From a virus (taxonomy: Duplodnaviria > Caudoviricetes): a DNA stretch of 32,915 nt. The position numbers and the translations under genes were made by a program. Below, in pieces: positions 11,029 to 30,447 of the stretch. Each line of letters starts with the position of its first letter. Position 1 is the stretch's first letter. The stretch covers positions 1 through 32,915 of the IMG/VR virus record IMGVR_UViG_3300020045_011830; one strand, 5' to 3'. Below the pieces are notes generated by a model, which was given only the letters and a program-made list of their open reading frames with translations, was not told the DNA's origin and searched no databases.

Positions 11029-11033
11029 TTGGC

Positions 11034-11522: not shown

Positions 11523-11523
11523 A

Positions 11524-12688: not shown

Positions 12689-13600
12689 TTAACGAAGTTG
12701 GTTCTTTCTATCGGCCTTTTTGCCTTCGCTTTCATATTGTTTCCAAAATGTCTCGAATTCATCGGCGCTCGCATTCAGCATATCGATATCAAACTCCTTC
12801 GAGTTAGAGCCGGTGCCGGATACACTGCCTGATGCCGCGCGTTTTTCCTCGATAGAGATTCCTTGCTTCGCGGGCTTCGCTGCCTGTCCTGTCCATCCTG
12901 ACCATTTCGCCAGTTCTACAACATACTCGCCAACGGGCTTTTTGTATGCACGCGCAACCGTCGCTATCCTTACGCTGTCCTCATACATGAGCTGACCCCA
13001 CTGATCCTGTGGGATACCCATATAATCCAGTTCCTTCTGGCGGTTCGTCAGGAGGTACTCGACTGCCTGGTCATAGTCTGGTCGCGTCTTCCGGTACTCC
13101 TGTAACTCGCTCTTTACCTCGGTCTCAAAGGACACCATCTTTTCAGACTGTTCTCGTAGTTCGCGCTGTTCCCGCGTCTCCCGTTCCCGAGTTTGCTTGA
13201 CGCTCCCGATTTCCTCCCGCAGTTCCCGTAAGTTCTTACGTAGATACTTCAACGGGTCTTGATCGAAAAGGGTTTCGTCATCTTCAAGCGCCGGAGGGCT
13301 TATGGCTTCTGGCTTCGCCTCAAGAACGCGCTGTTCACGAAGTGCCTTGATTTCTTCATGGAGGTTGCTGAATCGGCTTACCGTGCCGCGCAGTTCCTCA
13401 AGCTGTGCCTTGAGTGCCGCTTTCTCTGGATCGTCCGGGGTCTCCCTGGTCTCAGCCAGTTGCGTCGGGCCTGTCGCAATGATAGCAGAAGCGTCGGTGT
13501 GCTCACTGCCTTTTGTTACGGTATCAATCGGTTCGGGGGTAACTGGCTCGATATTTTCATCCACATCGACCGTCCACCACGGGGCTTGTTTCTCTGTCAT
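12689..13600 (-). CDS. Capsid scaffolding protein
   Basis: Acidic coiled-coil with DPLKY and PDYDQAV motifs, directly upstream of the capsid gene; GGAG RBS. Confidence 0.75.
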   Translation of the reverse strand: MTEKQAPWWTVDVDENIEPVTPEPIDTVTKGSEHTDASAIIATGPTQLAETRETPDDPEKAALKAQLEELRGTVSRFSNLHEEIKALREQRVLEAKPEAISPPALEDDETLFDQDPLKYLRKNLRELREEIGSVKQTRERETREQRELREQSEKMVSFETEVKSELQEYRKTRPDYDQAVEYLLTNRQKELDYMGIPQDQWGQLMYEDSVRIATVARAYKKPVGEYVVELAKWSGWTGQAAKPAKQGISIEEKRAASGSVSGTGSNSKEFDIDMLNASADEFETFWKQYESEGKKADRKNQLR

Positions 13601-13627
13601 GATTTCAACTCCAATTTCATAAATATA

Positions 13628-14245
13628 TCACTCGTTCCAACCCTGTCCATAAAAGTAAGTAGTATCTTTGACCGCCTTCAAACAATACTCAAACGCTTCC
13701 GCGTATCCCTCGATTAATGGTGCTTTATCAAGACCATTGATGATGCGCCGGGCCTGGTAATAGTCGCATTTCTGCCCGGAAATGAACTGTGATAGGCGTG
13801 CGCCAGTGAAGAGGCCGTGTCGCATTCCATGGGACATGATCCAATAGGCATTGTCGGGCTGGAGGGCCTCGTCGGGATTGGCCCCCAAAGGCAAGCCCAG
13901 GGCGTTTCCCATCACCCGGTAGTTCCGTTTCCAGGTGAGCTGCACATACCCTCGGCCATAGTATTTGCGTCCTTGACTGTCGGCCACGCCATAAGATTTT
14001 CCCTTACCGCGTCCGATTTCCTCGATAGGGTGCCAGGTGTTCGCGCATTCGTGCTTGACTGTGGCGAGCATATACGCTGCCCATCGCGCGTCGGTCAAAT
14101 GGGGGTCAATCTCGAAGAACGTTAGCAATTCATTCAGGCCATCTACCTGTGGCTGCGACAGCGGTCCGAACTCATCGCGAAATCGGGTAAAAAAGCGATC
14201 TCGGTCAATGGACAGGGAACGAATTTCCGGTAGGGTCATAATCAA
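13628..14245 (-). CDS. GH19 (chitinase-like) endolysin
   Basis: AYMLATVKHE, YYGRGYVQLTWKRNY, ARRIINGLD. Confidence 0.9.
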   Translation of the reverse strand: MIMTLPEIRSLSIDRDRFFTRFRDEFGPLSQPQVDGLNELLTFFEIDPHLTDARWAAYMLATVKHECANTWHPIEEIGRGKGKSYGVADSQGRKYYGRGYVQLTWKRNYRVMGNALGLPLGANPDEALQPDNAYWIMSHGMRHGLFTGARLSQFISGQKCDYYQARRIINGLDKAPLIEGYAEAFEYCLKAVKDTTYFYGQGWNE

Positions 14246-16065: not shown

Positions 16066-16082
16066 TGTCGCGCCTTAATAAG

Positions 16083-16111
16083 TTGACAACTATCAATAAT
16101 GTGGGTAGTAT
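16083..16111 (+). promoter_or_regulatory. Sigma70-like promoter for 16136-16504
   Basis: TTGACA-N17-TAGTAT; carries the TTGACAACT motif; GAGGA RBS downstream. Confidence 0.55.
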
Positions 16112-16135
16112 ACCTTATTTTAAGAGGATAATACT

Positions 16136-16504
16136 ATGTCAAGAGTTTTTAATCCCGAAGGACTCACAGAGAAACGCGGCAAGCTTCAATGGACAGGTAA
16201 TTTCATTCTAATAAAGGAAAAGGACAAATCATCAAAAACAGGGATGATGAATCGAAATTTCCTGGAAGTCCTCTGCGATTGTGGGCATGTCTACCCCTAT
16301 AAGGCCGAAAACTTCAAGCTGTCCAAAGGCCGTCACTGCCCGCAATGCAAACCTGAATCAAAAGGCACTTTCACCCGCTCCTATTCTTCTAAATTAAACT
16401 GGGAACAGTCAGATAGGCCAATCCTGGAGCAATGCAAGCTTGCACGCGAACTAACGAGCCACTGGCCGCTGCGAGGCCACCCCCCCCTTTATAGGAGCGC
16501 TTAA
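16136..16504 (+). CDS. Zn-ribbon protein (CDCG...CPQC)
   Basis: Own promoter and RBS; CxCG/CxxC motif like the N-terminus of phage HNH/AP2-type proteins, no nuclease domain seen. Confidence 0.65.
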   Translation: MSRVFNPEGLTEKRGKLQWTGNFILIKEKDKSSKTGMMNRNFLEVLCDCGHVYPYKAENFKLSKGRHCPQCKPESKGTFTRSYSSKLNWEQSDRPILEQCKLARELTSHWPLRGHPPLYRSA

Positions 16505-17919
16505 AGTGTCCAATCCGATACTTGATCTTCCTTCCCTTTCGGCTTCCGAGAACGCCTTACATTTTGCACAGCAAACGTAGCCACAAAGCTATCTCCCGCA
16601 TCCGGTGACCTGTGGAGTCTTGCCAGCAGGTCATCTTTCCCTTCTATCTTTAACCTACCCTGGCTATCGTACTTCCCTTTTATCACGCTCAGGTCTGCAA
16701 TTAGCGCGGGATCATCTGGCATACTTACTGTACGCGAATCGAACCACTCGAATGCTTCTTTATAAAGATAATCCCGGAGCTTGAGGCAATCCGGGGTGTA
16801 GGAACTTTCTGACACGTTCATGGCCAGGACCGTGCATTTATGGCCCAGGTGTTCGTCCAGGATATCCGCCACCCCGGCGCCGATGCCAATCGCATCCACT
16901 ACGATGTAGGAAGGGCGTTGATGGGATTCCGTATCCTTGAACTGCTTCACCACCCAGCCTGCCACCTCGGTCACAGAGCGCTTGTAGAGTAGTTGGACTG
17001 GCTGGATCAGATGGTTACCCTGGCGTCGGGATAGCGCACTGGCGCACTTCCCGTATCGTGCCGGGTCTACCCCCCAGATGGGCTGTACGTTTATTCGATC
17101 CACGCCGCGATCCACGGCGGCCTCTATGAGGTGAAGCGGGATATACGCATCATCGTTGCCCTGCGCGAAGTCGCCCTGGACACGAACGCGATAGATGTCG
17201 GAATCCTCGCCATACTGCCGGATGATACGCGCGATGTACTCCCGGCTACAGCGTGTCACCTGCTCGCCGTTGACCTGCTTGATGAAGAAGTCTTTGCGAT
17301 TTTTGCCGAACGCATCCCGGAAATAGCCATCCGTGCGCGTGGGGTTTCCGGTCAGAATGAAATAGCTGTCTTCCGTGGAAAGGCTTCCCTGGCCCGTCTC
17401 GAAGATAATGTCGTCGATTCCCGACGCCTCATCACAGATGAACAGCATGTTGTTGGCGTGGAATCCCTGGAGTGCTTCCGGTCGCTCCTTCTTTGCCGTG
17501 CGTGCCACCGCAAAGGAGTTCCTTGGATCGTCCTTGAGCCTGACATACCCCCCCAGGATATCGAGCCGGTCTTTTAGCCATCCTGGCATCGTGCGCCACC
17601 ACTTGCTAATTTCCGAGAACAGCACGTCCTGAAGTTGTGATTCCGTGTTTGCCGTGCAAGGGATTTTAAAGTTGACACGGGTAGAAGCGAACCACAACAA
17701 AAGCCAACTTAACAGCGTAGTCTTACCTACCCCATGCCCTGAGCGTATGGCCACCCACCGCTGCCCCTTGGCCATGGCGTCCATTACGTCAAACTGCCAG
17801 TTATCCTGCGGCAGCGCGGGGGTTGGATCGGGTTTCAATCCCCAGCAGTACTCCACGAAGACCAGGGGGTTATCCCTGGCCATCTGGAGGAAGCGCAGTT
17901 TGTCGTCAGTGAGTTTCAA
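16501..17919 (-). CDS. terL: Terminase large subunit
   Basis: RSGHGVGKT Walker A, FICDEASG Walker B, LTGNP, GVDPARYG, SPDAGDS nuclease motifs. Confidence 0.95.
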   Translation of the reverse strand: MKLTDDKLRFLQMARDNPLVFVEYCWGLKPDPTPALPQDNWQFDVMDAMAKGQRWVAIRSGHGVGKTTLLSWLLLWFASTRVNFKIPCTANTESQLQDVLFSEISKWWRTMPGWLKDRLDILGGYVRLKDDPRNSFAVARTAKKERPEALQGFHANNMLFICDEASGIDDIIFETGQGSLSTEDSYFILTGNPTRTDGYFRDAFGKNRKDFFIKQVNGEQVTRCSREYIARIIRQYGEDSDIYRVRVQGDFAQGNDDAYIPLHLIEAAVDRGVDRINVQPIWGVDPARYGKCASALSRRQGNHLIQPVQLLYKRSVTEVAGWVVKQFKDTESHQRPSYIVVDAIGIGAGVADILDEHLGHKCTVLAMNVSESSYTPDCLKLRDYLYKEAFEWFDSRTVSMPDDPALIADLSVIKGKYDSQGRLKIEGKDDLLARLHRSPDAGDSFVATFAVQNVRRSRKPKGKEDQVSDWTL

Positions 17920-20900
17920 TGTTGCCCCGCCTTCTTTAAGACAATCTTTAATATCCTCCCATGACTCGCCACAAAGTCCCGGCGTGCGTTGGCATGGGCT
18001 TTCTGTACCGTTTTCTCAATCAAAGCTTTCTTTTGATCATCATCCGCCGCGCGATACTGGCCGGTGCTCATCAGATTCCGGGTCATCGCCATGGTCATCA
18101 AGCCCGCGCGCTCTATCAACTGGTTGTGTTCTTCCGGTGTAAGCTCATACAGCGACGTCTTGCGCTTAGGCTGCCGCACCCCCACGCCAAGCCGGTTCAT
18201 TTCCTCCAGTGCCTTGTCACCGCGATCCACGGAAACCGCCACAGGTACAAACGCACTCCCGCCGGTCTCGATATCCTGTCCCGTGATGTCCTTACGTGCT
18301 AGCAGCGTGCTCTTTAGCCCCGGTATCCGGGCCTTCACCCCGTCGAAAATGCCGTCCATGCGCCGGTACATGGGGTCCGTTTCTTTTGCCACGGCCCCTA
18401 GCAATCCTCCCCACGGCACGAAGGACGAGATAAAGCGCTGCGCCCACCCCTTGGCATATCTGTCTGGATCGGAGAACGCATTGCTCGCACCTGTCAGCCC
18501 TTGAAGCCAGAGTTTGCTTTGCAGCATCTTTGCCGTGGCCTTAAAGAACAGCAACACGGATTCCACCGCTTCTCTATCCTCCATCTTGTCAATCATCTGC
18601 GCAATTTCCGCACCGTAGCTAAACCAGGTCCCTACGGGGTCTAAGCGGTTGAACTGGACCCAGGTATCCCCTAGCTTAATCGCATTAGGAACACGGCCCG
18701 TGGAAAACCACACGTTGCGCTCTCCCTCGTCATCCGGGGGGCTCCCTGTCGCCAGCCCCGCCGCGCCCAGCATGAACGCGAACCCCACCAACCCCGTCCC
18801 CAGGAGGATACGCCCCGCCACGACATCCCGTGTAGCCCCGCCTACTTTCCATTCCTCCCACACGGAAGGCATAAGCAACGCGGTAGGCAGAAAGCCCCTG
18901 AACCCATACCCGATGATGTTGCTCGATACAGACAAGAAGGGCGTCAGCAGCCACAACGGCTTGAACTTGTTGGCCGCCGTTCGCCATGCGCCCGCCAGAG
19001 GCCCTATCTTCCCTTGCATCAACTGCCGATCCACTTGCTTGATCGCGTCGTCTTCTATTGCCTGTCGCATCTCCGCATTCCCTACTACCTGCTCTCGCGT
19101 CAAGCCAGTGGCGCTGGCCTTCCGCGCTAGCAAGGCTTCATATTCCTTCGAGAATACGATGCTCTTAAAGAAAGCGTCCTCCGCGCCCAGGAACCGAAAG
19201 CTCACACCAATCGCCGCGCCTAACGGGCCTTTGATCGGACGTCCGCGTTGCTGCCATTTGGTGGTGAACTGCGCACTCATTCCTTCCAGCACGGGAATGG
19301 CCTGTCCATCCGAGATAAAGGATTCGCCAAATGCCGCCAGGCCCTTTGGAACACCCTGGATGTAGCCGTTGAAATGCGCCGACAGCTCCGCCGCCGTGAC
19401 CTTCTCGCCACCGTGCAGAACACCTATTCCCGCCGCTAATATCTTGCTCGCATCCTCGACAGCCTGGACCAGGGCGTTTCCACCAATGTTTGCCAGGTGA
19501 CTCGCCGGGCCGCTGGTCATCCACGAACGCCAGGCATAGAAGAACTTCTCCCAGTTCGTCGCCGCATGGATGTCGCTATTAGCCTGTAGGGCCTTTCCTA
19601 TCCCTTTCGCCTTGCCCTCGACTTCACGAGAATACTTGGCCTCGGACATCTGTACCGCAAGCGCCTTCATCTTCGACCGGGCCAGCTCGACATCTTCATC
19701 AAGCCCCATCGTCAGTTCCAATGCCCCTAGCTTCCCTATCGTGGCCTGGAGCTTTCGGAATATCTGTAGCGCCCTCCCAGCCTCCGCTCGTGCTCCGAAG
19801 AACTGCGCCTTCAAGGACATCAGGGCCAGGCTTCGCTCATACGCATCCGAGTAATCCTCATCCGTGACCTGTCCTGCCTTCACTCGCTTGTCGAAGGCCT
19901 CGAAGTAGTCCATGTTCGCGGTAACTTCCCGTTCCATGATGTTCGCGAAGGCCTGTAAATTCTCACTGTTGTACGCCTCGCCCAGGCTCCGTTGCAGATA
20001 CTTATCCAACTGCATCGGGTCTTCGTTCAGCATGGCAGCCAGTTGTTCTGTCTGCCCCCAGGTCTGCACCCCGCGTCGCGTCACGGTTTCAACGGGTCGT
20101 CGGATGTCCGCCTCGATGGGCTGCGCCACGTTGATAGGCACACCCAGCGCCTTTTGCTTCTTCTCCGCCACCGCACGTACCGCATCCGATACCGCGGTGC
20201 GTTTCGGCATGTCCGTAACGATAAGCGGGGCTTTGCCCCCCGTCTGTAATTGCGCATGAGAGCGCTGAAGGAGATCGTACACGTCCGCGTCGGTCCAGCG
20301 ACGGAGAAGAGACGAAAAGCCATTGCTACGTAGCCAGTTCCGCACGCGCGCGGTGACCTTCTTAAAGAAGCCGGTGTTGTTGATAGCATCCCAGGTCAGG
20401 TTAGCCAGGGCTTCCTCGGTCGACAGAGAGACACTGTAGCCATACCTGACGCGCAGGGCGTCGGCTTGTGCCCGGAGGGACTCGTTGCCCGCGTAAATCC
20501 CAATCATCGTCTGGTGCATCTGGCTACCCATGATCCGCGATAACCCGTAATGGCCCACGACCTCGTGCAGCAGTACCCGCTGGACCTCTTCCGCCGTGCT
20601 CACGCGATCATGAAAGATGTACGCCACGCCCTGGTCAAACACCCCCTTGGCATCCCCAGGAACCCCGGCGGGCGCTGGGATAATCTGGATGGACGGCGCG
20701 CCTGGCCAGCCCTTCACAATAGGTTCTATCGCTTGCTTTGCGAATTCCGCCGTGACGCCGGTGCCGGGCTTTCCACGGGAGTATGCCGGGGCCTGTGAAA
20801 TGAGCTTATTGATATCTTCGTTCAAGCCCGTGATAAGTTGCCGTGTGGCTTCTTTCAGTGCCGTGTTTTCGTCCGTGCCCTCGGCGGCCAACCGGGCCTG

Positions 20901-20969
20901 GAGGCTCATCAGGTCTGACTCATCGGCGGGGTTCAGTTTACTCAGCGCTTCAACACATTTTCTGGCCAT
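17916..20969 (-). CDS. Large polyvalent / DNA-injection virion protein with zincin-like motif
   Basis: 1017 aa; LLHEVVGHYGL...EEALA (HExxxH) domain; helical C-terminal region with hydrophobic segments (LPD38-like). Confidence 0.7.
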   Translation of the reverse strand: MARKCVEALSKLNPADESDLMSLQARLAAEGTDENTALKEATRQLITGLNEDINKLISQAPAYSRGKPGTGVTAEFAKQAIEPIVKGWPGAPSIQIIPAPAGVPGDAKGVFDQGVAYIFHDRVSTAEEVQRVLLHEVVGHYGLSRIMGSQMHQTMIGIYAGNESLRAQADALRVRYGYSVSLSTEEALANLTWDAINNTGFFKKVTARVRNWLRSNGFSSLLRRWTDADVYDLLQRSHAQLQTGGKAPLIVTDMPKRTAVSDAVRAVAEKKQKALGVPINVAQPIEADIRRPVETVTRRGVQTWGQTEQLAAMLNEDPMQLDKYLQRSLGEAYNSENLQAFANIMEREVTANMDYFEAFDKRVKAGQVTDEDYSDAYERSLALMSLKAQFFGARAEAGRALQIFRKLQATIGKLGALELTMGLDEDVELARSKMKALAVQMSEAKYSREVEGKAKGIGKALQANSDIHAATNWEKFFYAWRSWMTSGPASHLANIGGNALVQAVEDASKILAAGIGVLHGGEKVTAAELSAHFNGYIQGVPKGLAAFGESFISDGQAIPVLEGMSAQFTTKWQQRGRPIKGPLGAAIGVSFRFLGAEDAFFKSIVFSKEYEALLARKASATGLTREQVVGNAEMRQAIEDDAIKQVDRQLMQGKIGPLAGAWRTAANKFKPLWLLTPFLSVSSNIIGYGFRGFLPTALLMPSVWEEWKVGGATRDVVAGRILLGTGLVGFAFMLGAAGLATGSPPDDEGERNVWFSTGRVPNAIKLGDTWVQFNRLDPVGTWFSYGAEIAQMIDKMEDREAVESVLLFFKATAKMLQSKLWLQGLTGASNAFSDPDRYAKGWAQRFISSFVPWGGLLGAVAKETDPMYRRMDGIFDGVKARIPGLKSTLLARKDITGQDIETGGSAFVPVAVSVDRGDKALEEMNRLGVGVRQPKRKTSLYELTPEEHNQLIERAGLMTMAMTRNLMSTGQYRAADDDQKKALIEKTVQKAHANARRDFVASHGRILKIVLKKAGQH

Positions 20970-20974
20970 AACTC

Positions 20975-21003
20975 TTTACAAAGTTGTCAATCGAGGTTAT
21001 AAT
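20975..21003 (+). promoter_or_regulatory. Sigma70-like promoter for 21036-21221
   Basis: TTTACA-N17-TATAAT, with inverted TTGACAACTT in the spacer. Confidence 0.65.
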
Positions 21004-21035
21004 GAAATCTCATCATCACAGTTTAGGACAAAACC

Positions 21036-21221
21036 ATGTTAAACGAAATCGAACAGAAGTTATACAATGAAGCACTGGCCGAACTCTGCCGGGATTTCGT
21101 GGAACTGGCGGAAGAAGTGGGGATGGATGAATCAGCCGAAGAATTGGAACAGTACGCACAGGACTACGAAGCTCAAGCGGCCACCCTGGCTAAAGAATCC
21201 GCCACTGCCGAAACTCGTTAA
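21036..21221 (+). CDS. Small highly acidic protein
   Basis: 61 aa, 17 D/E vs 4 K/R; own promoter and AGGA RBS. Confidence 0.7.
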   Translation: MLNEIEQKLYNEALAELCRDFVELAEEVGMDESAEELEQYAQDYEAQAATLAKESATAETR

Positions 21222-21495
21222 CCTCTACCACCCCGTAGCCTCTCAGGCGCTGCAGAGCGTCTGAGATTGCTTTCCGCCGTACCCCTGGAAACTCAAAATC
21301 ACGTAGTAGATACCGCTTTTCCGGTTTCATGAACTTAATGATCCTGTACTGGAGTCCCGTAGGTATTCCTATTACACTTCGTGGAGGCTGGAGTTCCAGG
21401 GTATCCCTGGGGGTTCCAGGGTTCGCCCTGGGTTGTTTTGGACTCCAATGGAAGGATTCATTGGCTTTCTTGATATACAAATCTTGTATTGACAT
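21190..21495 (-). CDS. Putative winged-HTH protein
   Basis: ATG at 21495 downstream of a terminator; RKAISDALQRLRGYGVVE wHTH-like C-terminus. Confidence 0.55.
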   Translation of the reverse strand: MSIQDLYIKKANESFHWSPKQPRANPGTPRDTLELQPPRSVIGIPTGLQYRIIKFMKPEKRYLLRDFEFPGVRRKAISDALQRLRGYGVVEVNEFRQWRIL

Positions 21496-21509
21496 TAGGG
21501 AGTTACCAT

Positions 21510-21531
21510 AAAAAAGCCCGGCGAACCGGGC
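21510..21531 (-). terminator. Rho-independent terminator
   Basis: GCCCGG-TTCG-CCGGGC-TTTTTT on the minus strand after 21571-21975. Confidence 0.85.
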
Positions 21532-21570
21532 AAGGACCATGCCTCAATAGGAGGAGGAGGCGGGCTGCAT

Positions 21571-21975
21571 CTATCTCATTTCGACGGCTGAGGGTTCGAC
21601 CCCCCACAGCATCGTCCGATATCGGTGAACCACTGGGCTACCAAAGTCGCGGTAACGCATACGCGGGAGAAACTCGCCGTTGTTTCCCGACTTGATAAAC
21701 ACAAGGGCATGGTGCATCACTTTACCCCAGTCCTTGCGGGTCTCCAGCACACATGCGTCGTTAATATTGTCCGAAAACCCGGTGATGTGAACAGAACCTT
21801 CGCCGCGAATATCGCAGGTCAGGTACTCATGCGTCGGCGCGCTGACTTCATGCGTCACACGGTTCCTGGTGGAGTGCGTCACACGCAACACCCAATCACT
21901 TACATCACCCATACCACCAGCCATCGCTGGCAACGTAACAAACAATAATACAAAACTAATTAATTTCATTGGCAA
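21571..21975 (-). CDS. Secreted/periplasmic hypothetical protein (moron-like unit)
   Basis: Signal peptide MKLISFVLLFVTLPAMA; own promoter and terminator. Confidence 0.65.
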   Translation of the reverse strand: MPMKLISFVLLFVTLPAMAGGMGDVSDWVLRVTHSTRNRVTHEVSAPTHEYLTCDIRGEGSVHITGFSDNINDACVLETRKDWGKVMHHALVFIKSGNNGEFLPRMRYRDFGSPVVHRYRTMLWGVEPSAVEMR

Positions 21976-21992
21976 TTTTTCCTTTCATTTAA

Positions 21993-22020
21993 AGCATAAC
22001 ATACTAATCATTCTTGTCAA
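21993..22020 (-). promoter_or_regulatory. Sigma70-like promoter
   Basis: TTGACA-N16-TATGCT with extended TG. Confidence 0.55.
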
Positions 22021-22090
22021 GCTCTCCCGCGTCCGCGATGAGCGACATGATCACTAAAAACAACGTTACAAGAATAAGCTTAATCATGGC

Positions 22091-22663
22091 CTACCCCCCT
22101 GGGCGACAGAGCGCTGCCGCCTCCACGAGCCATCTAGCAAAGTCCGGCGGTGTATGCTCTCTCGCCGCCTTACCCAGCCCCGGCAACTTCCCGCGACGGC
22201 TTCCTTTCCCGGCAACCTCATGTGTGGGAGGGGCAAAGTTCAAAGGGATTTGCGGGATATCGCCCGGCTCAACTCCGCATAGGTACAAAAGGGTAGATTT
22301 TCGCGCTTTATGTCCCCACCAACACTGATCCACGCAAATAGACCATCCACCAAAAATGTCTCTGCTTTTTGCCAGGGGCAGGCCAGCTTCCACCCACAGC
22401 TTTGATGTTCGCGGATGCTCCAGCACCCCACCGTACTTTCTGACCTGCTCGACGGCCCAGAACGCCAGGTCGCGCTCACCTGGCCGAGGCTTAGCAAATT
22501 TAGCGAGGTTACCCCATGCTCTACACGGCGGGTGAGCTACCACAGGATAGGGACCAGGGTATTTCGTTGCATCCCGATCCACATCCCATACATCACAGTA
22601 CGGTATTTTTTTGTAGGTACTATCAGCCCGCGCAAACAGCACGGCAACACGCATCTTATTCAT
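22091..22663 (-). CDS. Short phage DNA cytosine-C5 methyltransferase-like protein
   Basis: VVAHPPC catalytic motif IV, GGVLEHP (motif VI-like), GHKARK, TPPDFARWL. Confidence 0.75.
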   Translation of the reverse strand: MNKMRVAVLFARADSTYKKIPYCDVWDVDRDATKYPGPYPVVAHPPCRAWGNLAKFAKPRPGERDLAFWAVEQVRKYGGVLEHPRTSKLWVEAGLPLAKSRDIFGGWSICVDQCWWGHKARKSTLLYLCGVEPGDIPQIPLNFAPPTHEVAGKGSRRGKLPGLGKAAREHTPPDFARWLVEAAALCRPGG

Positions 22664-22681
22664 ACAAATACACCCTAACAG

Positions 22682-23191
22682 TTAGTGGCGCTCCTGGCTG
22701 TTAGCGGAGTGCGGGGGACACTCCCCAGGAGCAATATCCCCAAAGTCCCCATCATAAACTTGTCTTTGGAACTTGTCAAGCAACGAATACGTGTAGTACT
22801 CGCCGCCCTCCCGCGATCCAGCCCACACGAACGGCATCATGTACCGCACCTGAAACGCGATGATGGACTGAAGGACAGCATGCGGACTCATCCGCGACAC
22901 GTAACGGTGGATGCGCACCGTGTCCACGGACGCTTCGATCACCACGGCCTTGCACACCTTCGACATCAGTCGCTCCAGCTCGCGCTCGAACCTGTCGCGG
23001 TTCTGCCCCATCAGGCACGACACCAGGTCATCCAGACTCTTTCGCTCAATCGCAATCTCCGCCTCCAGGCCAGGGAGAGAGTAGTCACCTTCGGGCAGCG
23101 CCACGCGCTCAATCTCTACTTCGCGTTTCTCGAAGAGGTAAGGTTTCTGCTCACGTGTGTCAACGAGGACCTTCAGAAGGGTGTTTTGCAT
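22682..23191 (-). CDS. ERCC4-domain nuclease
   Basis: VDTREQKP, GDYS, IERKSLDDL, RFERELER motifs. Confidence 0.9.
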   Translation of the reverse strand: MQNTLLKVLVDTREQKPYLFEKREVEIERVALPEGDYSLPGLEAEIAIERKSLDDLVSCLMGQNRDRFERELERLMSKVCKAVVIEASVDTVRIHRYVSRMSPHAVLQSIIAFQVRYMMPFVWAGSREGGEYYTYSLLDKFQRQVYDGDFGDIAPGECPPHSANSQERH

Positions 23192-23285
23192 GCGGGGCCG
23201 GTAGTATGGTACAGGGTAGGTGGTGATCGCCGCGTTGTAGCTATCGACATACGCGCCAGGGCTGATCCTGGCGCGTTGTTCCCGG

Positions 23286-23492
23286 TTATTTCAGCTGACT
23301 CATCATCTCGACAATGAGTTGCTCTAGATGCGCCATGCGCTCCAGCAGGTCTTGCTTGTCCTTGACGCACTCCAGGTGCCGCGCTTCCAGGAGCGACACG
23401 ATCCGCTGGAAGAGCCACCAGACGACACCGCCCAGGCTGGACACCGCAGCAACAAGGTGCGCGGGATCAATCGCGATGACGTCAGCCGACAT
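23286..23492 (-). CDS. Small membrane protein, holin-like
   Basis: 68 aa from ATG 23492; one TM helix followed by a coiled coil. Confidence 0.55.
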   Translation of the reverse strand: MSADVIAIDPAHLVAAVSSLGGVVWWLFQRIVSLLEARHLECVKDKQDLLERMAHLEQLIVEMMSQLK

Positions 23493-23507
23493 GGGTATCC
23501 CCGGGGG

Positions 23508-23775
23508 GGTCAATCCCCGCGTGTGCGGGGGAATCGCCAGGCTCAAGCCGAACACCGTGGAGTTTTGGGGTCGATCCCCGCGTGTGCGGGGGAATAGTGG
23601 TGACGTTCATTTGTTGCCAAAACCTCCAAGGTCAATCCCCGCGTGTGCGGGGGAATCCCGCGTGTGCGGGGGTATCTGCCGCATGGATAGGGTCAATCCC
23701 CGCGTGTGCGGGGGAATCCAGCCATTCTACCCCACTGCGGGGCTAAGAGTCAATCCCCGCGTGTGCGGGGGTATC
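23508..23775 (-). CRISPR. Type I-E-like CRISPR array A (5 repeats)
   Basis: 28-bp repeats GGTCRATCCCCGCGTGTGCGGGGGWATM at 23508, 23569, 23630, 23691, 23748 (last begins with A); three 33-bp spacers and one 29-bp interval; minus-strand 3' end GGGGATTGACC resembles I-E GGGGATAAACC. Confidence 0.95.
23724..23753 (-). promoter_or_regulatory. Promoter built from repeat end plus 29-bp pseudo-spacer
   Basis: TTGACT (23753-23748)-N18-TAGAAT (23729-23724), 5 bp before the next repeat. Confidence 0.6.
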
Positions 23776-24245
23776 TATGCGCCGTCCCCATTATCCGCCG
23801 TGGTGACGTTCATTTGTTGCCAAACCCTCCAACTTGAGTCTGGATAGGAAGTATTCTGCGCGGCACAGGTATACCCCTTGCTCGCCGCCTGGTAGGTCCC
23901 ACGGAAGAACAAGCTACCCCATCCTTGCGTCTGCACGGCCTTAGCCACGAAGGAGGCAGCGCTATACTCGCCAGGGCCTATTATGTAGCCCACAGATTTG
24001 ATACACGCATTCGTGGCCGGATGAAAACGCCAAAACCGGATCAAATACTGCTGCGAGTTGGTATTGTTTATGAACGTCTGAACGGTGATGAAATCATTAG
24101 CCAGGTCACAGGTGGTGGTATTTCCACACGACATCACGGGATCGGTAGTCGGATCTCCTGGGAAAAACCCCTGGTTCGGACCACAAGCCGCCAAGGCCGC
24201 AACGGAAAGGAAGAAGGAGAAGAACGCGCCGATCTTTTGAATCAT
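23775..24245 (-). CDS. Lipoprotein of unknown function between CRISPR repeats
   Basis: Signal peptide with lipobox LAAC; AGGAAG RBS; stop codon overlaps the repeat by one base. Confidence 0.8.
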   Translation of the reverse strand: MIQKIGAFFSFFLSVAALAACGPNQGFFPGDPTTDPVMSCGNTTTCDLANDFITVQTFINNTNSQQYLIRFWRFHPATNACIKSVGYIIGPGEYSAASFVAKAVQTQGWGSLFFRGTYQAASKGYTCAAQNTSYPDSSWRVWQQMNVTTADNGDGA

Positions 24246-24277
24246 GGTTACACTTCCTGAAAAGTTATTAATCCGCG

Positions 24278-24306
24278 ATTATCCCATAAGCCCCGTGGGG
24301 CGTCAA
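24278..24306 (-). promoter_or_regulatory. Sigma70-like promoter of the lipoprotein gene
   Basis: TTGACG-N17-GATAAT with extended TG; palindrome GCCCCACGGGGC in the spacer. Confidence 0.65.
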
Positions 24307-24315
24307 CCCTTAGAC

Positions 24316-24512
24316 GGTCAATCCCCGCGTGTGCGGGGGTATCTTGGCTTGCTCCGATTTCAAATCGACGCAAGATGGTCGATCCCCGCGTGTGCGGGGG
24401 TATCAATCTCTACTTCGCGTTTCTCGAAGAGGTACGGGGTCAATCCCCGCGTGTGCGGGGGTATCTATCCAGGAGATCGGCTCAGAATTGAGCCAAGGGG
24501 TCGATCCCCGCG
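24316..24512 (-). CRISPR. Type I-E-like CRISPR array B (3 full repeats and 1 half repeat)
   Basis: Repeats ending GGTATC at 24316, 24377, 24438; 14-bp partial repeat at 24499; three 33-bp spacers; exact 61-bp period. Confidence 0.95.
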
Positions 24513-24577
24513 AGCACAAACAGCCACCGGGGGTCCAGACCCTGTTCCTTCATCACGTCCAGCACCAGGATTTCCAT
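24482..24577 (-). CDS. Possible 31-aa peptide running through the half repeat
   Basis: TGATG coupling to the upstream gene; MEILVLDVMKEQGLDPRWLFVLAGIDPLAQF*. Confidence 0.3.
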   Translation of the reverse strand: MEILVLDVMKEQGLDPRWLFVLAGIDPLAQF

Positions 24578-25569
24578 CAATCGAAAATGCCCAGCTTCTG
24601 CGGAGGCTCTTTCCCACGCAATATGGTCTCATACTCTGGGCGATCCAGACTCAAGAAAGGGTGCTTGGCGCGTCGTGTCGCCGCATCCATCCACATGCGA
24701 GCCTCGACTGCCCTGGCTTCCATTTCTCCCGCCAGACGCTTGTAGAGTTCGTGTTTCGTTAGCCATTTCGGCAGCAAGGGGTTTCGCCGGGCGTAGTTTC
24801 CTAGCTCTGGATCGGATGGGGATCCGCCACGCTCAAAGCCCTCGTACCGTTGCACGCGATGCTGTAGTTCGTGGAGCAAGGTCTTTCGCCGGTCGAGCCC
24901 CTCGACGGGTTTCGACGACATCGCCATACTGCCTTCGCCCGCTGCCCCACGCACGCCCGGTGGTAGCTCCTTGATATACACGGGGTAGTCCTTGAGGAAC
25001 GGGTACTGCTTGAAGAGTTCGGGATGATCCAGCAGATTTTTTGCGTAGAACACGCCAGGCTTCATCTCGCCCGTGGCCGGGATCTTAAACTTTGCCTTGG
25101 AATCGTCAATCTCAAACCGCCACTGGTCATCCAGCCCCTTATGCCAGCCAGTCTTTGCCGCGACTTCCTCCCGCGAGAACTTCTTAGCCAGGGCCTCTAT
25201 CGCCTCTGCTCGCTCCCGCAAGGGCGCTTTCTCTGCCTTCGCTCCCGCGAATATGGCCGCTAGGGCACCGGAGAAGCCCTTAGCGCCCGCCTTGAGCTCC
25301 ATGGTAGGGTCAGGTGAGAGTAACCCACCACCCAGGTGTAAGGCCTTCTCTCCCGTCGTTTCTGGGGTAACTGTCGCCAAGAACTTACCCATCTGGTCCT
25401 TTATCCACTCAGACCCCCCCACGGACTTCTCGACCGGCGCCTGGCCGTCCACCATCCGCACCAGGTTCATCAGGGCCTGCATGGCGTCCACGGGCAGGCC
25501 AGCGGTTCCCGCCAGGGATTCGTTGATGCCAGAGCCCAGGAGGCCCAGGGATTTGTCGGCGGATGGCAT
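24577..25569 (-). CDS. LPD23-like polyvalent-domain protein
   Basis: TGWHKGLDDQWRFEIDDS, HPELFKQYP, LLHELQHRVQRYEGFERGG, LAGEMEAR; GAGGA RBS. Confidence 0.8.
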   Translation of the reverse strand: MPSADKSLGLLGSGINESLAGTAGLPVDAMQALMNLVRMVDGQAPVEKSVGGSEWIKDQMGKFLATVTPETTGEKALHLGGGLLSPDPTMELKAGAKGFSGALAAIFAGAKAEKAPLRERAEAIEALAKKFSREEVAAKTGWHKGLDDQWRFEIDDSKAKFKIPATGEMKPGVFYAKNLLDHPELFKQYPFLKDYPVYIKELPPGVRGAAGEGSMAMSSKPVEGLDRRKTLLHELQHRVQRYEGFERGGSPSDPELGNYARRNPLLPKWLTKHELYKRLAGEMEARAVEARMWMDAATRRAKHPFLSLDRPEYETILRGKEPPQKLGIFD

Positions 25570-25571
25570 GG

Positions 25572-25760
25572 CTATTCCTCAGTGGTTGGTTCCGACATTG
25601 TAGCTTTTCGTGAGGGATTTGTCAGTGAGAGGGGGTGCTGCCCATGCAAATCCTGGCAAAAGCGCCGGAAGTCCATCAATTCGGGCCAGCTTAGCTTTTC
25701 TTCTGCCGGTTTATTGGCGGTTTTTTGCTCGTATCGGAGCACTGCAGGGTGGTTTTTCAT
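25572..25760 (-). CDS. Hypothetical protein
   Basis: 62 aa, stop 2 bp upstream of the next start. Confidence 0.4.
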   Translation of the reverse strand: MKNHPAVLRYEQKTANKPAEEKLSWPELMDFRRFCQDLHGQHPLSLTNPSRKATMSEPTTEE

Positions 25761-25860
25761 AATAAGTGGTCATTTCGTTTAAAGTGTGGTCATTTTACCA
25801 GAGGTCCCTAACCTCCGTCAACCCCCCGCCCCGCCTTGCGTTGAGGTGGTGGGGCAGGGA

Positions 25861-26162
25861 GTGATACCAAGTGATACCAAGTGGCATACCATGAGAAACT
25901 ACATTAAGAATCATCGCTAAGTAGCAGTTAAGGGCTTTTGTTTTTTACTACTAATACCACTAATACCACTAATACCAAGTACTTTAAAGTTTATATAGAG
26001 AGAGAAACAGAAATATATATATCTCCCCCAGGAGTAATTTGGAGGTTTTTGCTGGTTTTCGTGAGGTACTTGGTTAGAGCAAGCTGTGGCGCGGACTTGG
26101 GGGGTGGGGGTACTTGGTATGCCACTTGGTATGCCACTTGGTATTAGTGGTATTAGTGGTAT
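25861..26162. repeat. Convergent iteron arrays flanking an AT-rich core; putative replication origin
   Basis: Six ATACCA units on + (25864-25977) and five TGGTAT units (26115-26162); AT-rich core ~25981-26023; directly downstream of primase-helicase. Confidence 0.75.
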
Positions 26163-26230
26163 GTCGCTCAAAGACGACGAAGCCCCAAGGAGGGATATGG
26201 TCCTTGAGGCTCGAGTTAACCATACGCTTA

Positions 26231-28402
26231 CTAATCGGGGTTGTCAACCGCCAAAAAGCGAAGTTTGACGCCATGTATCCGGCTGGCTATCCTTCCGTAA
26301 CCGTGCATCCCTGACCGCGGTTTGTACACCACGCCTTTCTCTCTGCGTTCATCCCGGAAGTAGCTGATCACCCTCTCAACGAACACGCTCACCGAGACCG
26401 GCTTTTCTCCATGGGACTCGCACCAGGTGTAGTAATTGGGGTAGGCCCACGTTCCAATGTTTGCGTATCCTAGCGCTTTCGAGGAGGCGTCTTTCATCAC
26501 CAGCTTGCCGATGAAAACAAAGCCGTTTGGATCGCACCCCTCCAGATTGTCCTCTGCCCAGGCCGCCACATGATTACGCTCCGTGCTCACACGGATCGCG
26601 TTCCCTCGCAGCCGGTCCGACAACGTGTCGCGTGCCCGGATCGCCTCCAGCATCTCCGCCTCTGACATCCCTAGAGCCCACACCGCCAGTCCGGGGATAT
26701 GGGGTAGAAACTCCTCATCCAGCCGCCGCACCTGGGAAGGTAAGACCGACTTGTTGAAGGGCAGGTTGATTTCACGCCTGGCCAGCGCGCCAGGGTTCGT
26801 GCTACGTAGCTGCTTGTTCGCGGCAATGACAATCGTGCCATTGAACCGAAACCCGCTATCCGCATCCTTGTTTTTGCGTTCGTAGCGTATCAAATCGCCG
26901 CCCGTGAGCTTCAGCAGGGTTTTGACATCACCGCCCCAGGTTTCGGAGTCAGGCAGACAAACAAGGCCCTTCCCTTTCAGGTTGGAAGTCTCGAAACGGT
27001 TAGTCTCGATGTCTGCCAGGCTGGTGGAATAACTGTTCTCGCTGCCAATCAGTTGTTCGAGCAGCCATACGAACGTGCTCTTTCCGCTATTGGGTGCGCC
27101 GTTGATGTAAAGGTAATACTGATACTTCCCGCCAAGACGGCACAACACCAGCCGAACCACTGCGCGCATAAGCTCAAACTGCCCTTCGTCCCCCTCGCAG
27201 ACGTCCTCTAGCAGCCAGGAAAGGATAGGGGTAGGCACGGCGTCCTGGATATACCCGTAATGCATCCGGTAGGTCAGCAGCCGCCGGGATTGAATTGGCG
27301 CTAACTCCAGGGTGTCGGGGTTTAACAGTCCATTGCTGAAGGGTAATAGATGCCCGCCATCCGTAAAGCCTTCTTCCGCGCAATAAAGCCTGGCCAGCTC
27401 CTCGACCCACGCGGGTAATCGGCTATGATATTCCACGCCGCGACAACAGTCAGTCAGGGCGTTATTGATGAATGCCAGCATCCAGGCGTCCTTCCTCACC
27501 TCCCATATCCCATTGACGTTTTCCCGCCATGCCAGGCTAGGGACATCAAACCGGAACTGTGGATAAGCCTCTTTAAAGCTAAGTGCAATGCCGCTGTGCG
27601 CCCTCAAACGGCTCACTTCCTTATCTTTGATGAACACGGTTTCCGTGGGGGAAAAGGCCGTGCTCGACTTCACCGATCCTTCCTTCCCGTTCTTTGTCCA
27701 GTCAGCAATCTTCCTTACCTCATCCTCAGGCAGTGGTGGATCGCACTGTGCCCCGTTCATCCGGGCCAGGATTTGGCGGACTTCCTCGGGGGTGGAGCCT
27801 GCCCATCTGAGTCGTTTCGCGTGGTCCACAAGCAAGTTATGGCGCCCGCCTTCGCTAACGATTTCGCCGGTAGTGGAGGAAGGAAGAGGGCTAACTGGAG
27901 TAGTGGGTATCAGGCTTTCCACCTCTGTTTGCCGCGTGTTGATTTCCATCGGTGTCCCTGGCCAATGGTCGCCGGTCATAATGAAGAATCTTCCCGTGTG
28001 ATATATCTCCAGTCCAGGCACCTTGTACGCCCGTGCCAGGGTGGCCTTGATGAAAATATGTAACCCCGTGGCGGACTGTGACACTTCCGTGTAGCTATCC
28101 AGTAGCTCGACAATCCGCTGTGCCTCCGTGGATAGCTCCCCGGTCTCTTTGTCTAAGCATTTATCCAGGTCCACACCCACATAGGGGTCTGTGGCGGTGA
28201 ACACAAAACCCATGGCCTGTGGATAGGCTTGGAGGACATGCCCAAAACTGGACCAGTGTTTTGGATTCGTGCTGCTTGCGCCACTTCGGTCGAACGGATT
28301 GATGGGGAGCTTTTTCTTGTCCGGTGTGAGTGTCCAGGTGATCCACTGGGGGAGTACCTTTAGCTCATCTGGGATATTTTCTGGTGATGGATTTTTGTAC
28401 AT
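26231..28402 (-). CDS. Primase-polymerase/PriCT/SF3 helicase (P4/D5-type)
   Basis: Probable start MYKNP at 28402; GVDLD, EVSQSATGLH, EIY (AEP); EGGRHN...PPLPEDEV (PriCT); GAPNSGKST, LTGGD, IAAN (SF3). Confidence 0.92.
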   Translation of the reverse strand: MYKNPSPENIPDELKVLPQWITWTLTPDKKKLPINPFDRSGASSTNPKHWSSFGHVLQAYPQAMGFVFTATDPYVGVDLDKCLDKETGELSTEAQRIVELLDSYTEVSQSATGLHIFIKATLARAYKVPGLEIYHTGRFFIMTGDHWPGTPMEINTRQTEVESLIPTTPVSPLPSSTTGEIVSEGGRHNLLVDHAKRLRWAGSTPEEVRQILARMNGAQCDPPLPEDEVRKIADWTKNGKEGSVKSSTAFSPTETVFIKDKEVSRLRAHSGIALSFKEAYPQFRFDVPSLAWRENVNGIWEVRKDAWMLAFINNALTDCCRGVEYHSRLPAWVEELARLYCAEEGFTDGGHLLPFSNGLLNPDTLELAPIQSRRLLTYRMHYGYIQDAVPTPILSWLLEDVCEGDEGQFELMRAVVRLVLCRLGGKYQYYLYINGAPNSGKSTFVWLLEQLIGSENSYSTSLADIETNRFETSNLKGKGLVCLPDSETWGGDVKTLLKLTGGDLIRYERKNKDADSGFRFNGTIVIAANKQLRSTNPGALARREINLPFNKSVLPSQVRRLDEEFLPHIPGLAVWALGMSEAEMLEAIRARDTLSDRLRGNAIRVSTERNHVAAWAEDNLEGCDPNGFVFIGKLVMKDASSKALGYANIGTWAYPNYYTWCESHGEKPVSVSVFVERVISYFRDERREKGVVYKPRSGMHGYGRIASRIHGVKLRFLAVDNPD

Positions 28403-28600
28403 ATATTTTCCCTTTTCCCAAACGGTGGTGGCAGATAAAAGGGCGGGCCAGCGTTTGGGATACTGGCCCGTTACTGCGGGTACGTTGAAGTGTTTGCCCT
28501 GGTTAGACGTCCAGTTGTTCAGTTGTCTAAGCTGAACTGGCAAGACGAATAATCTCTTATTTTCGTGTCCGTGTCAAGTCATTTCTTAGCTCACGCAGTG

Positions 28601-28628
28601 TTGACAACTTTCTAAACTATGTTATACT
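28601..28628 (+). promoter_or_regulatory. Early promoter, copy 1
   Basis: TTGACA-N16-TATACT with extended TG; 34/43 identical to 30367-30409. Confidence 0.75.
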
Positions 28629-28667
28629 GTAATCACAGTATCCGATTAACCCAAAGAGGACAACAGA

Positions 28668-29097: not shown

Positions 29098-30030
29098 ATG
29101 AGTAAAGAAATCAGTTTTCCTGTTCTATTGCAAAAGACCTTGCCGGAAATTGCAAAAGCCTTGCCGAAACATCTTACGGCAGAGCGCATGGGGCGCATTG
29201 CGCTGACCGCCTTCCGACAGAACCCGGCGCTTGCGGAGTGCGATCCAATGTCGATCATCGCGTGTGTTGTGCAGTCCGCGCAACTGGGTCTGGAGCTGGG
29301 GGTTAGCGGGCATGCTTTCCTTGTGCCGTATAACGGACGGTGCCAATTTGTTCCCGGCTGGCGTGGGCTGGTGGACCTGGTGAGCCGCGCGGGACGTAGC
29401 TCTGTCCACACGGGAGTAATCCATCAGGGGCAAGAGTATCGCTACACGCAAGGGGCAAGGCCGGACCTGGCGATCCTTACGGAGTCGGATGAGGATAAGC
29501 CGATCATCTACGCGTATGCCGTGGGTTGGGTAAAAGGCGCGGAATGGCCTGTCATCGAGATGTGGAGTGCCGAGAAACTCATGAAGCACCGCGACAGGTA
29601 TAACAAGGTAGGGAAGCGACACTACTCCTACGCGAACTGGGAAATGTACTGTCGCAAAGTTGTTTTGCTCCAGGTGTTAAAGTACATGCCTTCGTCCGTG
29701 GAGTTGTCAACGGCGATAGCGCTGAACGACGCAGCTGAAGTGGGTAATCAAGGCGTAACCGTGGAAGGAGCAATTGACTGGTCCTGGACGCCCCCTGAGC
29801 GCGATGAAATAGGTGCGCCGGATGGGAGTGAGCCATCCTCGACAAGAGAGGGCGTGAAGGTCGCGTATGCGGGAGAAATCCAGGCCATCAAGGAGCATTT
29901 GGGGATGGGTGATGTAGCCGAGGCTAAGCGGCTTTGGGCGGCGATCCCGCAAGCGGACCAGATTCAATTATGGGTCGCCCCGACCAAAGGCGGGTGTTTT
30001 ACAACGGAAGAGCGTGAGCAGTTGAGGTGA
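29098..30030 (+). CDS. recT: RecT-family single-strand annealing recombinase
   Basis: IAKALPKHLTAERM, CDPMS...SAQLGLE, AFLVPY, GWRGLVDL, WEMYCRKVV; GAGGA RBS. Confidence 0.92.
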   Translation: MSKEISFPVLLQKTLPEIAKALPKHLTAERMGRIALTAFRQNPALAECDPMSIIACVVQSAQLGLELGVSGHAFLVPYNGRCQFVPGWRGLVDLVSRAGRSSVHTGVIHQGQEYRYTQGARPDLAILTESDEDKPIIYAYAVGWVKGAEWPVIEMWSAEKLMKHRDRYNKVGKRHYSYANWEMYCRKVVLLQVLKYMPSSVELSTAIALNDAAEVGNQGVTVEGAIDWSWTPPERDEIGAPDGSEPSSTREGVKVAYAGEIQAIKEHLGMGDVAEAKRLWAAIPQADQIQLWVAPTKGGCFTTEEREQLR

Positions 30031-30363: not shown

Positions 30364-30373
30364 CTGCGCAGCA

Positions 30374-30401
30374 TTGACAACTTATCAAACAATGCTATAC
30401 T
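30374..30401 (+). promoter_or_regulatory. Early promoter, copy 2
   Basis: TTGACA-N16-TATACT with extended TG. Confidence 0.75.
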
Positions 30402-30447
30402 TTAATTACGAACAGAAAATAGTCTTACTAACCATAGGAGCATTTCA

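What the first reader, a model, noticed from the sequence alone, without database searches (positions are those of the whole stretch)
24405..24437. Spacer matches the phage's own ERCC4 gene with one synonymous seed mismatch
Seen: spacer AATCTCTACTTCGCGTTTCTCGAAGAGGTACGG equals 23111-23143 at 32/33. The mismatch (24435 C vs 23141 A) is position 3 of the minus-strand 33-mer and is synonymous (Pro CCG vs CCT). The target is preceded by 5'-AAA, a I-E-like PAM context. Inference: the guide targets a sibling phage allele while self is protected by a seed substitution, i.e. single-nucleotide kin discrimination.
Basis: partly seen in the sequence, partly recalled or inferred. Interest (0 to 1): 0.9.

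Follow-up and report, generated by a model that had tools for sequence, protein, structure and literature searches.

The report
Phage CRISPR guides aimed at kin
A bacterial virus with no recognisable CRISPR proteins carries two short CRISPR arrays in which two guides match its own neighbouring genes except for one letter each, which likely lets it turn the host's CRISPR machinery on close relatives while partly sparing itself, a strategy already described, though no targeted relative was found.

Summary
The match is real: spacer 24405-24437 equals 23111-23143 at 32 of 33, silent at an invariant ERCC4 proline. The register needs correcting. The arrays read on the minus strand and use a type I-E repeat whose 33-mer starts with the last PAM base. 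So the PAM is AAC, not AAA, and the mismatch is seed position 2. Two near-self guides, both aimed at genes beside the arrays, on a phage contig without cas genes, fit the published virus-borne mini-array strategy against relatives. No relative with the spacer allele and no host was found. Published E. coli data show that many single seed mismatches do not stop interference, so 'single-nucleotide discrimination' is unproven. The oddest feature is a 33-nt unit made of 14 unique bases plus 19 bases of repeat. It looks like a guide captured from another CRISPR array, possibly a rival's. Verdict: new member of a known kind, interest 0.4.

The parts
24405..24437 (-). Spacer of array 2 matching the phage's own ERCC4 gene at 32 of 33; crRNA G at protospacer position 2
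23111..23145 (-). Self site in ERCC4: PAM AAC (23145-23143), protospacer 23142-23111, silent change at 23141 (Pro17 wobble)
   Evidence: Pro17 invariant in 29 of 29 aligned homologs
22682..23191 (-). ERCC4-type nuclease gene, 169 aa
   Evidence: Pfam PF02732 and phrog_3490; nearest listed homologs at most 66% identical
24316..24512 (-). Array 2: a half repeat (24512-24499), three full 28-nt repeats and three 33-nt spacers
   Evidence: the half repeat closes a hairpin with upstream sequence
23508..23775 (-). Array 1: five 28-nt repeats, three 33-nt units and one 29-nt unit
23597..23629 (-). Spacer of array 1 matching the adjacent lipoprotein-like ORF at 32 of 33; mismatch at protospacer position 7
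   Evidence: (family D13)
23800..23834 (-). Self site in the lipoprotein-like ORF: PAM AGT (23834-23832), mismatch at 23825 (Val141 in the gene, Phe in the spacer)
23775..24245 (-). 156-aa ORF between the arrays, with an N-terminal hydrophobic stretch and a lipobox-like LAAC (motif recalled); its stop codon overlaps the first base of the repeat at 23775
   Evidence: no homolog; one weak hit to an MBG-repeat protein, E 8e-4; Atlas first hit 'lipoprotein' at 0.85, a lead only
23658..23690 (-). 33-nt unit made of 14 unique bases and the first 19 bases of the repeat; read as a spacer captured across a spacer-repeat junction
   Evidence: 0 of 770 cellular 33-nt spacers hold 12 or more bases of the repeat core
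23724..23753 (-). Sigma-70 match formed by the altered repeat end and the 29-nt unit; its start would fall near the next repeat at 23718
   Evidence: 10 of 12 match; the only one of 9 repeat ends with such a -10 box
24278..24306 (-). Sigma-70 match upstream of the lipoprotein-like ORF, facing array 1
   Evidence: 10 of 12, extended -10
29098..30030 (+). RecT single-strand annealing protein (context for recombination; not part of the arrays)

Best explanation
This phage contig carries two short type I-E CRISPR arrays and no recognisable cas genes, and two of its guides match genes beside the arrays at 32 of 33 bases; the guides are likely loaded into the host's Cascade-Cas3 to cut close relatives that carry the exact sequence, while the seed mismatch (plus a weaker PAM at one site) likely reduces, but may not abolish, attack on the carrier. 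Shown: array anatomy, minus-strand sense, I-E repeat family, both matches, their positions and codon effects. Inferred: transcription from the sigma-70 matches, processing by host Cas6e, an AAY PAM, the existence of relatives with the spacer alleles, and the degree of self-protection. Which side changed (target escape, or a guide taken from an already different relative) cannot be told.
For: Two independent near-self spacers among six 33-nt units. Both mismatches are in the seed (positions 2 and 7; about 0.05 if placed at random). Both targets lie within 400 nt of the array region (about 0.003 by a rough post hoc count). The ERCC4 change is the silent site of the protospacer nearest the PAM, at a proline invariant in 29 of 29 homologs. 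The site has AAC; AAY occurs at 2.8% of positions and is the optimal PAM of the V. cholerae I-E system, where AGY is about 9 to 50 times weaker (PMC12767519). The repeat core lies beside I-E genes on the same strand in 5 of 5 cellular loci checked. No cas hit among 41 ORFs in Pfam and PHROGs, 28 in NCBIfam or 30 in PADLOC. The repeat hairpins flanking the ERCC4 spacer fold intact. Run X1 holds two 151-nt contigs near-identical to ERCC4 and its upstream region with diverged ends, so other alleles of this locus exist. The same pattern is published for SPV1 and SPV2 (PMC6858448).
Against: No sequence with the spacer allele was found in viral contigs or metagenome contigs. No close relative was found by ERCC4, capsid or RecT. 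These tools may leave out near genomes. The host and its Cascade are unidentified: the exact phage repeat had 0 hits in three collections, and the nearest cellular repeat differs by 1 base. In E. coli most single seed mismatches were still cleared; rC-dA at position 2 and rG-dA at position 4 were tolerated (PMC12871591), and more than 90% plasmid loss was seen for single mutations at each seed position of two spacers (PMC4678831). The ERCC4 self pair would be rG-dA at position 2 next to an optimal PAM. Imperfect self-matches can also trigger priming (PMC7099407). The arrays show decay: two single-base repeat changes, one half repeat, one 29-nt unit. The lipoprotein mismatch is not silent.
Confidence: 0.63

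Rival explanations
1. Relic of host immunity: the host took these spacers from an ancestor of the phage, the phage escaped by seed mutation, and pieces of the host array were then picked up by recombination near the matching sites. The arrays are now passive and decaying.
For: Seed changes are the classical escape signature. One target lies 24 bases from an array repeat. Recombination with host arrays is the proposed route for phage mini-arrays (PMC7099407, citing Faure 2019). Repeat decay and irregular units. RecT is present.
Against: Eight full repeats keep an intact 6-bp stem. The 61-nt period is kept in six of seven units. Two sigma-70 matches face array 1, one apparently built into the array. 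Origin by capture does not exclude present function.
Confidence: 0.18
2. Self-regulation: the guides park Cascade on the phage's own ERCC4 and lipoprotein-like genes to damp their expression, with cutting prevented by the mismatch or by a phage inhibitor of Cas3.
For: Both matched genes flank the arrays. The ERCC4 site is at codons 17-27, near the gene start. Regulatory guides exist in phages (bioRxiv 10.1101/2023.03.03.530964).
Against: The regulatory guides in that paper match promoters partly, with a conserved seed. These match coding sequence almost fully with the mismatch in the seed. The second target is at the gene's 3' end. No anti-CRISPR hit among the ORFs scanned, though unknown small ORFs remain and these libraries cover such proteins unevenly.
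Confidence: 0.08
3. Artefact: the single differences are sequencing or assembly errors, or the contig is a consensus of a mixed population that joins an array from one strain with target alleles from another.
For: Single contig with no reads available. The only listed run does not come with contigs over these sites.
Against: Two separate mismatches, both in the seed and one at a wobble base, are unlikely as random errors. A perfect match beside AAC would itself need explaining.
Confidence: 0.06

Closest known systems
Mini-CRISPR arrays of portogloboviruses SPV1 and SPV2 (Medvedeva et al. 2019, PMC6858448; passages and section 9 read)
   Same: Virus-borne arrays without cas genes. Targets close to the array. 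The carrier's own orthologous sites differ by point mutations or deletions.
   Different: Archaeal viruses with host-like leaders and 1 or 2 spacers, and with the targeted rival in hand. Here: a tailed phage, type I-E repeat, 3 and 4 units, no host-type leader identified, no rival found.
Phage and prophage mini-arrays of Faure et al. 2019 (not held; seen only as summarised in PMC6858448, PMC7099407 and PMC11656645)
   Same: Spacers against adjacent genes of closely related phages but not the carrier. No leader.
   Different: Here there are two arrays around a gene that one of them targets, only one mismatch per site, and a unit that contains repeat sequence.
AAY-PAM type I-E system of V. cholerae (PMC7677007 passages; PMC12767519 parts 1 and 2 of 3)
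   Same: 28-nt repeat, 33-nt spacer whose first base is mostly a pyrimidine and belongs to the PAM.
   Different: A complete cellular system with its own repeat. Its PAM ranking is borrowed here by analogy, not measured for this repeat family.
Regulatory mini-arrays and Racr single repeat units in phages (bioRxiv 10.1101/2023.03.03.530964 section 26; PMC11656645 passages)
   Same: Repeat-bearing RNAs on a phage without cas genes that rely on host Cas proteins.
   Different: Those are single repeats or shortened guides with partial matches to cas promoters. These are full-length guides matching phage coding sequence.

Membership tests
Virus-borne short CRISPR arrays without cas genes (mini-arrays) | Lies in a virus genome without cas genes | tested here: met
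   Portal, terminase, capsid, primase and RecT hits; no cas hit. The contig showed no terminal repeat and may be incomplete.
Mini-array, strict definition (PMC11656645) | Only one or two spacers | tested here: not met
   Three and four units. Not filed under the strict definition.
Mini-array, broad count (Shmakov 2023, section 26) | Short viral array, including those with three or more repeats | tested here: met
Virus-borne short CRISPR arrays without cas genes (mini-arrays) | Repeat identical to that of the host's system | tested here: inconclusive
   Host unknown. Exact repeat 0 hits; nearest cellular repeat 1 base off.
Virus-borne short CRISPR arrays without cas genes (mini-arrays) | Spacers match related viruses exactly | tested here: inconclusive
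   No match, or in 160 fetched viral loci.
Virus-borne short CRISPR arrays without cas genes (mini-arrays) | Carrier's own orthologous sites are mismatched and lie near the array | tested here: met
   Two sites at 32 of 33, within 400 nt of the array region.
Virus-borne short CRISPR arrays without cas genes (mini-arrays) | Guides are made and exclude a rival through host Cas proteins | not testable with these tools
   Needs the host and bench work.
Type I-E CRISPR repeat | Short stem-loop repeat with a 7-nt 3' tail and 33-nt spacers | tested here: met
   5-nt head, 6-bp stem, 4-nt loop, 7-nt tail; the layout of the family is recalled, the 28 plus 33 sizes are from PMC7677007.
Type I-E CRISPR repeat | Cellular arrays with this repeat core lie beside cse2, cas7, cas5, cas6e | tested here: met
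   Cas7 (CT1975), Cas6e and Cas1 in 5 of 5 loci checked, Cse2 in 4 of 4 submitted; arrays on the cas strand in 5 of 5. Five of 63 loci were checked. The Cas8-sized ORFs had no Pfam hit.
Type I-E CRISPR repeat | AAY PAM | tested here: inconclusive
   The -1 base is C or T in 703 of 832 cellular spacers. The AA part rests on the one ERCC4 site and on analogy.
Racr single repeat units | Solitary repeat without a targeting spacer | tested here: not met
   Multi-repeat arrays with full-length, target-matching spacers.
Regulatory mini-arrays | Partial match to a promoter with an intact seed | tested here: not met
   The two matched guides hit coding sequence with a seed mismatch. Matches of the other units to host cas promoters could not be tested.

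The most novel reading that the evidence does not exclude
The cassette fights rival CRISPR cassettes and spreads by linkage. The unit 23658-23690 is a guide captured from another array, and it would direct Cascade to a sibling's own mini-array. The other guides cut siblings right beside the cassette's locus, so RecT-type repair from the carrier would copy in the arrays together with the escape alleles. That would be an RNA-guided homing or cleave-and-rescue element and would explain why mini-array targets sit next to the array.
Probability: 0.13. Interest if true: 0.8.

Novelty: new member of a known kind. Interest (0 to 1): 0.4.

Why it matters
It is a clean, compact test case for an open point in the mini-array model: whether one seed mismatch beside an optimal PAM is enough to spare the carrier, or whether such phages pay a priming cost or need a Cas3 inhibitor (raised in PMC7099407). 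The two sites give a natural contrast: optimal PAM with a position-2 mismatch, and weak PAM with a position-7 mismatch. If the repeat-containing unit is a guide against a rival's array, it would show arrays targeting arrays. If linked cutting and repair copy the cassette, it would explain the target proximity that Medvedeva et al. left unexplained.

Tried and rejected
Spacer-allele scans: 0 in viral contigs and metagenome contigs. Exact phage repeat: 0 in viral, genome and metagenome collections; a shorter core gave 63 cellular loci across many phyla, so no host. None of 832 cellular spacers matched the window beyond 13 to 17 bases. Close-relative scans with ERCC4, capsid and RecT found none. 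Alignment scans kept 80 of 401 distant ERCC4 loci and 80 of 585 loci of the neighbouring gene. A simple periodic-repeat test and an I-E stem motif found no CRISPR-like array in these 160, and no spacer match above 17 bases. In the ERCC4 set the best in-register site had 11 mismatches and 2 of 78 sites had AAY, so the guide could reach only very close kin. Cultured phages: no DNA match to 22000-26000 or to the arrays; best capsid hit 46%. Plasmids gave six weak partial hits, taken as repeat matches and not examined. Rfam and tRNA scans were empty. No RNA holder was listed. Run X1 gave no cover of either target, either array or most of 8001-28000, which proves nothing. Relatives could not be drawn for a virus record. 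Pro codon use (CCG 126, CCC 96, CCA 73, CCT 68 in 19 genes; CCT 3 of 8 in ERCC4) is too weak to say which allele is older. Strong hairpins in two spacers are within the cellular range (11% and 13% of spacers fold as well). Antisense action on mRNA was rejected because the guides have the same sense as both genes. Faure 2019 and Varble 2019 were not held. Searches for homing or gene-drive readings of mini-arrays and for repeat-containing spacers showed no such paper in their listings; only listings were seen, apart from passages of PMC11656645, and subscription journals are mostly missing.

Full report
Context. The window is a whole 32,915-base contig of a tailed phage: P22-like portal, terminase, major capsid, two endolysins, primase, RecT. 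No terminal repeat was found with 20- and 50-base end probes, so it may be incomplete. No cas gene was found among 41 ORFs in Pfam and PHROGs, 28 in NCBIfam or 30 in PADLOC; the only CRISPR-related row was a far sub-threshold helix-turn-helix hit (15.8 bits against a cut-off of 140). No integrase was seen in these scans. The phage has no close relative in the collections: ERCC4 homologs are at most 66% identical among those listed, the neighbouring gene at most 63%, the capsid 46% to the best phage record.

The observation. Spacer 24405-24437 equals 23111-23143 at 32 of 33; chance expectation about 1e-13. The difference is the wobble base of Pro17 of the ERCC4 ORF, a residue invariant in 29 of 29 aligned homologs (the query and the top 28 of 1028 hits).

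Anatomy. There are two arrays. Array 2 (24316-24512) has a half repeat, three repeats and three 33-nt spacers. Array 1 (23508-23775) has five repeats, three 33-nt units and one 29-nt unit. A 156-aa ORF lies between them. Read on the minus strand the repeat has a 5-nt head, a 6-bp stem, a 4-nt loop and a 7-nt tail. A 24-nt core of it was found in 63 cellular loci. In the 5 loci I checked, I-E genes lie beside the array and on the same strand as this sense. So the repeat is type I-E and the guides read on the minus strand, the same sense as the two matched genes.

Register of the PAM. In 832 unique cellular spacers the first of the 33 bases is C 467, T 236, G 106, A 23. In the V. cholerae I-E system, which also has 28-nt repeats and 33-nt spacers, this base comes from the target and is the last PAM base, and the motif is AAY (PMC7677007, passages). 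AAC and AAT are optimal there and AGY is about 9 to 50 times weaker (PMC12767519, parts 1 and 2 of 3). By this analogy the ERCC4 site has an optimal AAC and a mismatch at protospacer position 2. Silent changes are possible at positions 2, 5 and 8 of the seed; position 2 is the nearest to the PAM.

A second near-self guide. Spacer 23597-23629 matches 23800-23832, in the 3' part of the 156-aa ORF, at 32 of 33. The mismatch is protospacer position 7 and changes Val to Phe; the PAM reads AGT. Either the true target has AAT, or the spacer was taken one base off an AAG; I cannot tell. The ORF has a lipoprotein-like start (motif recalled), a sigma-70 match upstream, and no homolog beyond one weak hit to an MBG-repeat protein. 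A superinfection-exclusion role would suit its place but is a guess. Both mismatches fall in the seed (about 0.05 at random) and both targets lie within 400 nt of the array region (about 0.003; a post hoc figure).

Search for the targeted kin. The spacer allele was not found, nor the exact repeat, nor a close relative. The tools warn that near genomes may be left out. The one listed run, X1, holds two 151-nt contigs over 22880-23011 (1 difference) and 23177-23290 (2 differences, 1 gap), each with a loose end. By eye, the loose end at 22880 is ERCC4 sequence with mostly silent differences, and the one at 23177 gives a different ERCC4 start. So other, mosaic alleles of this locus exist. These are short contigs and neither reaches position 23141.

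Is one mismatch enough? In E. coli, most single seed mismatches were cleared within 10 hours; rC-dA at position 2 and rG-dA at position 4 were tolerated, and those that blocked interference promoted priming (PMC12871591, parts 1 and 2 of 8). I did not see rG-dA at position 2 tested in what I read. Single mutations at each seed position gave more than 90% plasmid loss for two spacers, although earlier reports had them blocking interference (PMC4678831, passages). G in the target strand is the most damaging change and A is not singled out (PMC6212716, passages). These are plasmid assays with induced or derepressed cas genes, and a replicating phage may need only a slower rate of cutting (inference). 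Iranzo et al. treat priming on the carrier as the main cost of such arrays (PMC7099407, passages and Discussion part 1). The fair statement is attenuation of unknown size, stronger at the lipoprotein site, possibly backed by an unrecognised inhibitor.

The odd unit. Unit 23658-23690 keeps the 61-nt period, but its last 19 bases (guide sense) are the first 19 bases of the repeat variant used in array 2 and at 23775. None of 770 cellular 33-nt spacers holds 12 or more bases of the repeat core. Two deletions would have to sum to exactly one period. One capture of a 33-base piece across a spacer-repeat junction explains it in one step, and the unit starts with C like most spacers of this family. 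Its 14 unique bases, which include the seed, have no close match in this contig (best 3 mismatches). The source could be a sibling's array, an older state of this one, or the host's. Against function: the lowest-energy fold of this stretch disturbs the upstream repeat hairpin, though the centroid keeps it. The 29-nt unit before it forms a sigma-70 match with an altered repeat end and would start a transcript near the next repeat, so it may serve as a promoter rather than a guide.

Mechanism. Most likely (0.63) the arrays are transcribed, cut by host Cas6e and loaded into host Cascade, and they exclude close relatives with exact sites, while the carrier's sites are attenuated. Rivals are a passive relic of host immunity (0.18), self-regulation (0.08) and artefact (0.06). 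The bold extension (0.13) is that cutting beside the cassette plus RecT repair spreads the arrays with their escape alleles, and that one guide aims at a rival array. Nothing here tests that beyond proximity, RecT, the mosaic X1 pieces and the odd unit.

Comparison with what is known. Medvedeva et al. report virus-borne arrays without cas genes whose carriers differ from the target by point mutations or deletions, with targets close to the array and the reason unclear (PMC6858448, section 9). They cite the same pattern for phages. A 2024 review treats inter-virus competition as the standing explanation (PMC11656645, passages). Their Supplementary Data 2 and Faure 2019 were not seen and may already hold single-mismatch cases. 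Earlier notes of this scan describe the same pattern in several other phages; they are unchecked leads and lower the surprise. A word search of those notes for a repeat-containing spacer returned nothing. These arrays exceed the strict one-or-two-spacer definition, so I file them in the broad class only.

Verdict. Observation confirmed, PAM corrected, second case added. It works like a known strategy. The single-base discrimination and the targeted relative remain unshown. Interest 0.4.

Noticed in passing
window 23658-23690: 33-nt array unit whose last 19 bases are repeat sequence; looks like a spacer captured from another CRISPR array.
   Followed up: partly
window 23719-23753: Shortened 29-nt unit plus altered repeat end form a sigma-70 match. 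A GC-rich near-palindrome lies between its boxes, and another between the boxes at 24278-24306.
   Followed up: partly
window 24483-24578: A possible small ORF of about 31 codons on the minus strand starts in the stop codon of the LPD23 gene and runs through the half repeat into the first spacer; seen in the frames, approximate coordinates.
   Followed up: no
window 22861-23290: Run X1 holds near-identical pieces of ERCC4 and its upstream region with diverged ends and a different gene start, suggesting a mosaic locus.
   Followed up: partly
window 22091-22663: phrog_12600 protein with 3318 homologs and an invariant AHPPC motif, recalled as resembling the catalytic motif of cytosine methyltransferases; no Pfam hit. 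It has its own sigma-70 match (11 of 12) inside the ERCC4 3' end.
   Followed up: no
window 2907-8130: Cluster of TPR, glycosyltransferase family 29 and two methyltransferase genes on the plus strand, unusual cargo that may modify DNA or the virion.
   Followed up: no
window 25946-26162: Perfect 27-nt inverted repeat built of short iterated units around an AT-rich stretch, next to the primase gene; a likely replication origin.
   Followed up: no
window 28594-28636 and 30367-30409: Two 43-nt copies (79% alike) that read as strong sigma-70 promoters ahead of small unknown ORFs; a place to look for anti-CRISPR genes.
   Followed up: partly
window 24577-25569: A 330-aa LPD23 protein that matches parts of much longer phage proteins lies directly upstream of array 2; it may be a truncated large polyvalent protein.
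   Followed up: no
L005, L006, L059: One cellular array with this repeat core has C after all 59 repeats, unlike the mixed C, T, G of most others: the family includes stricter AAC-type systems.
   Followed up: no
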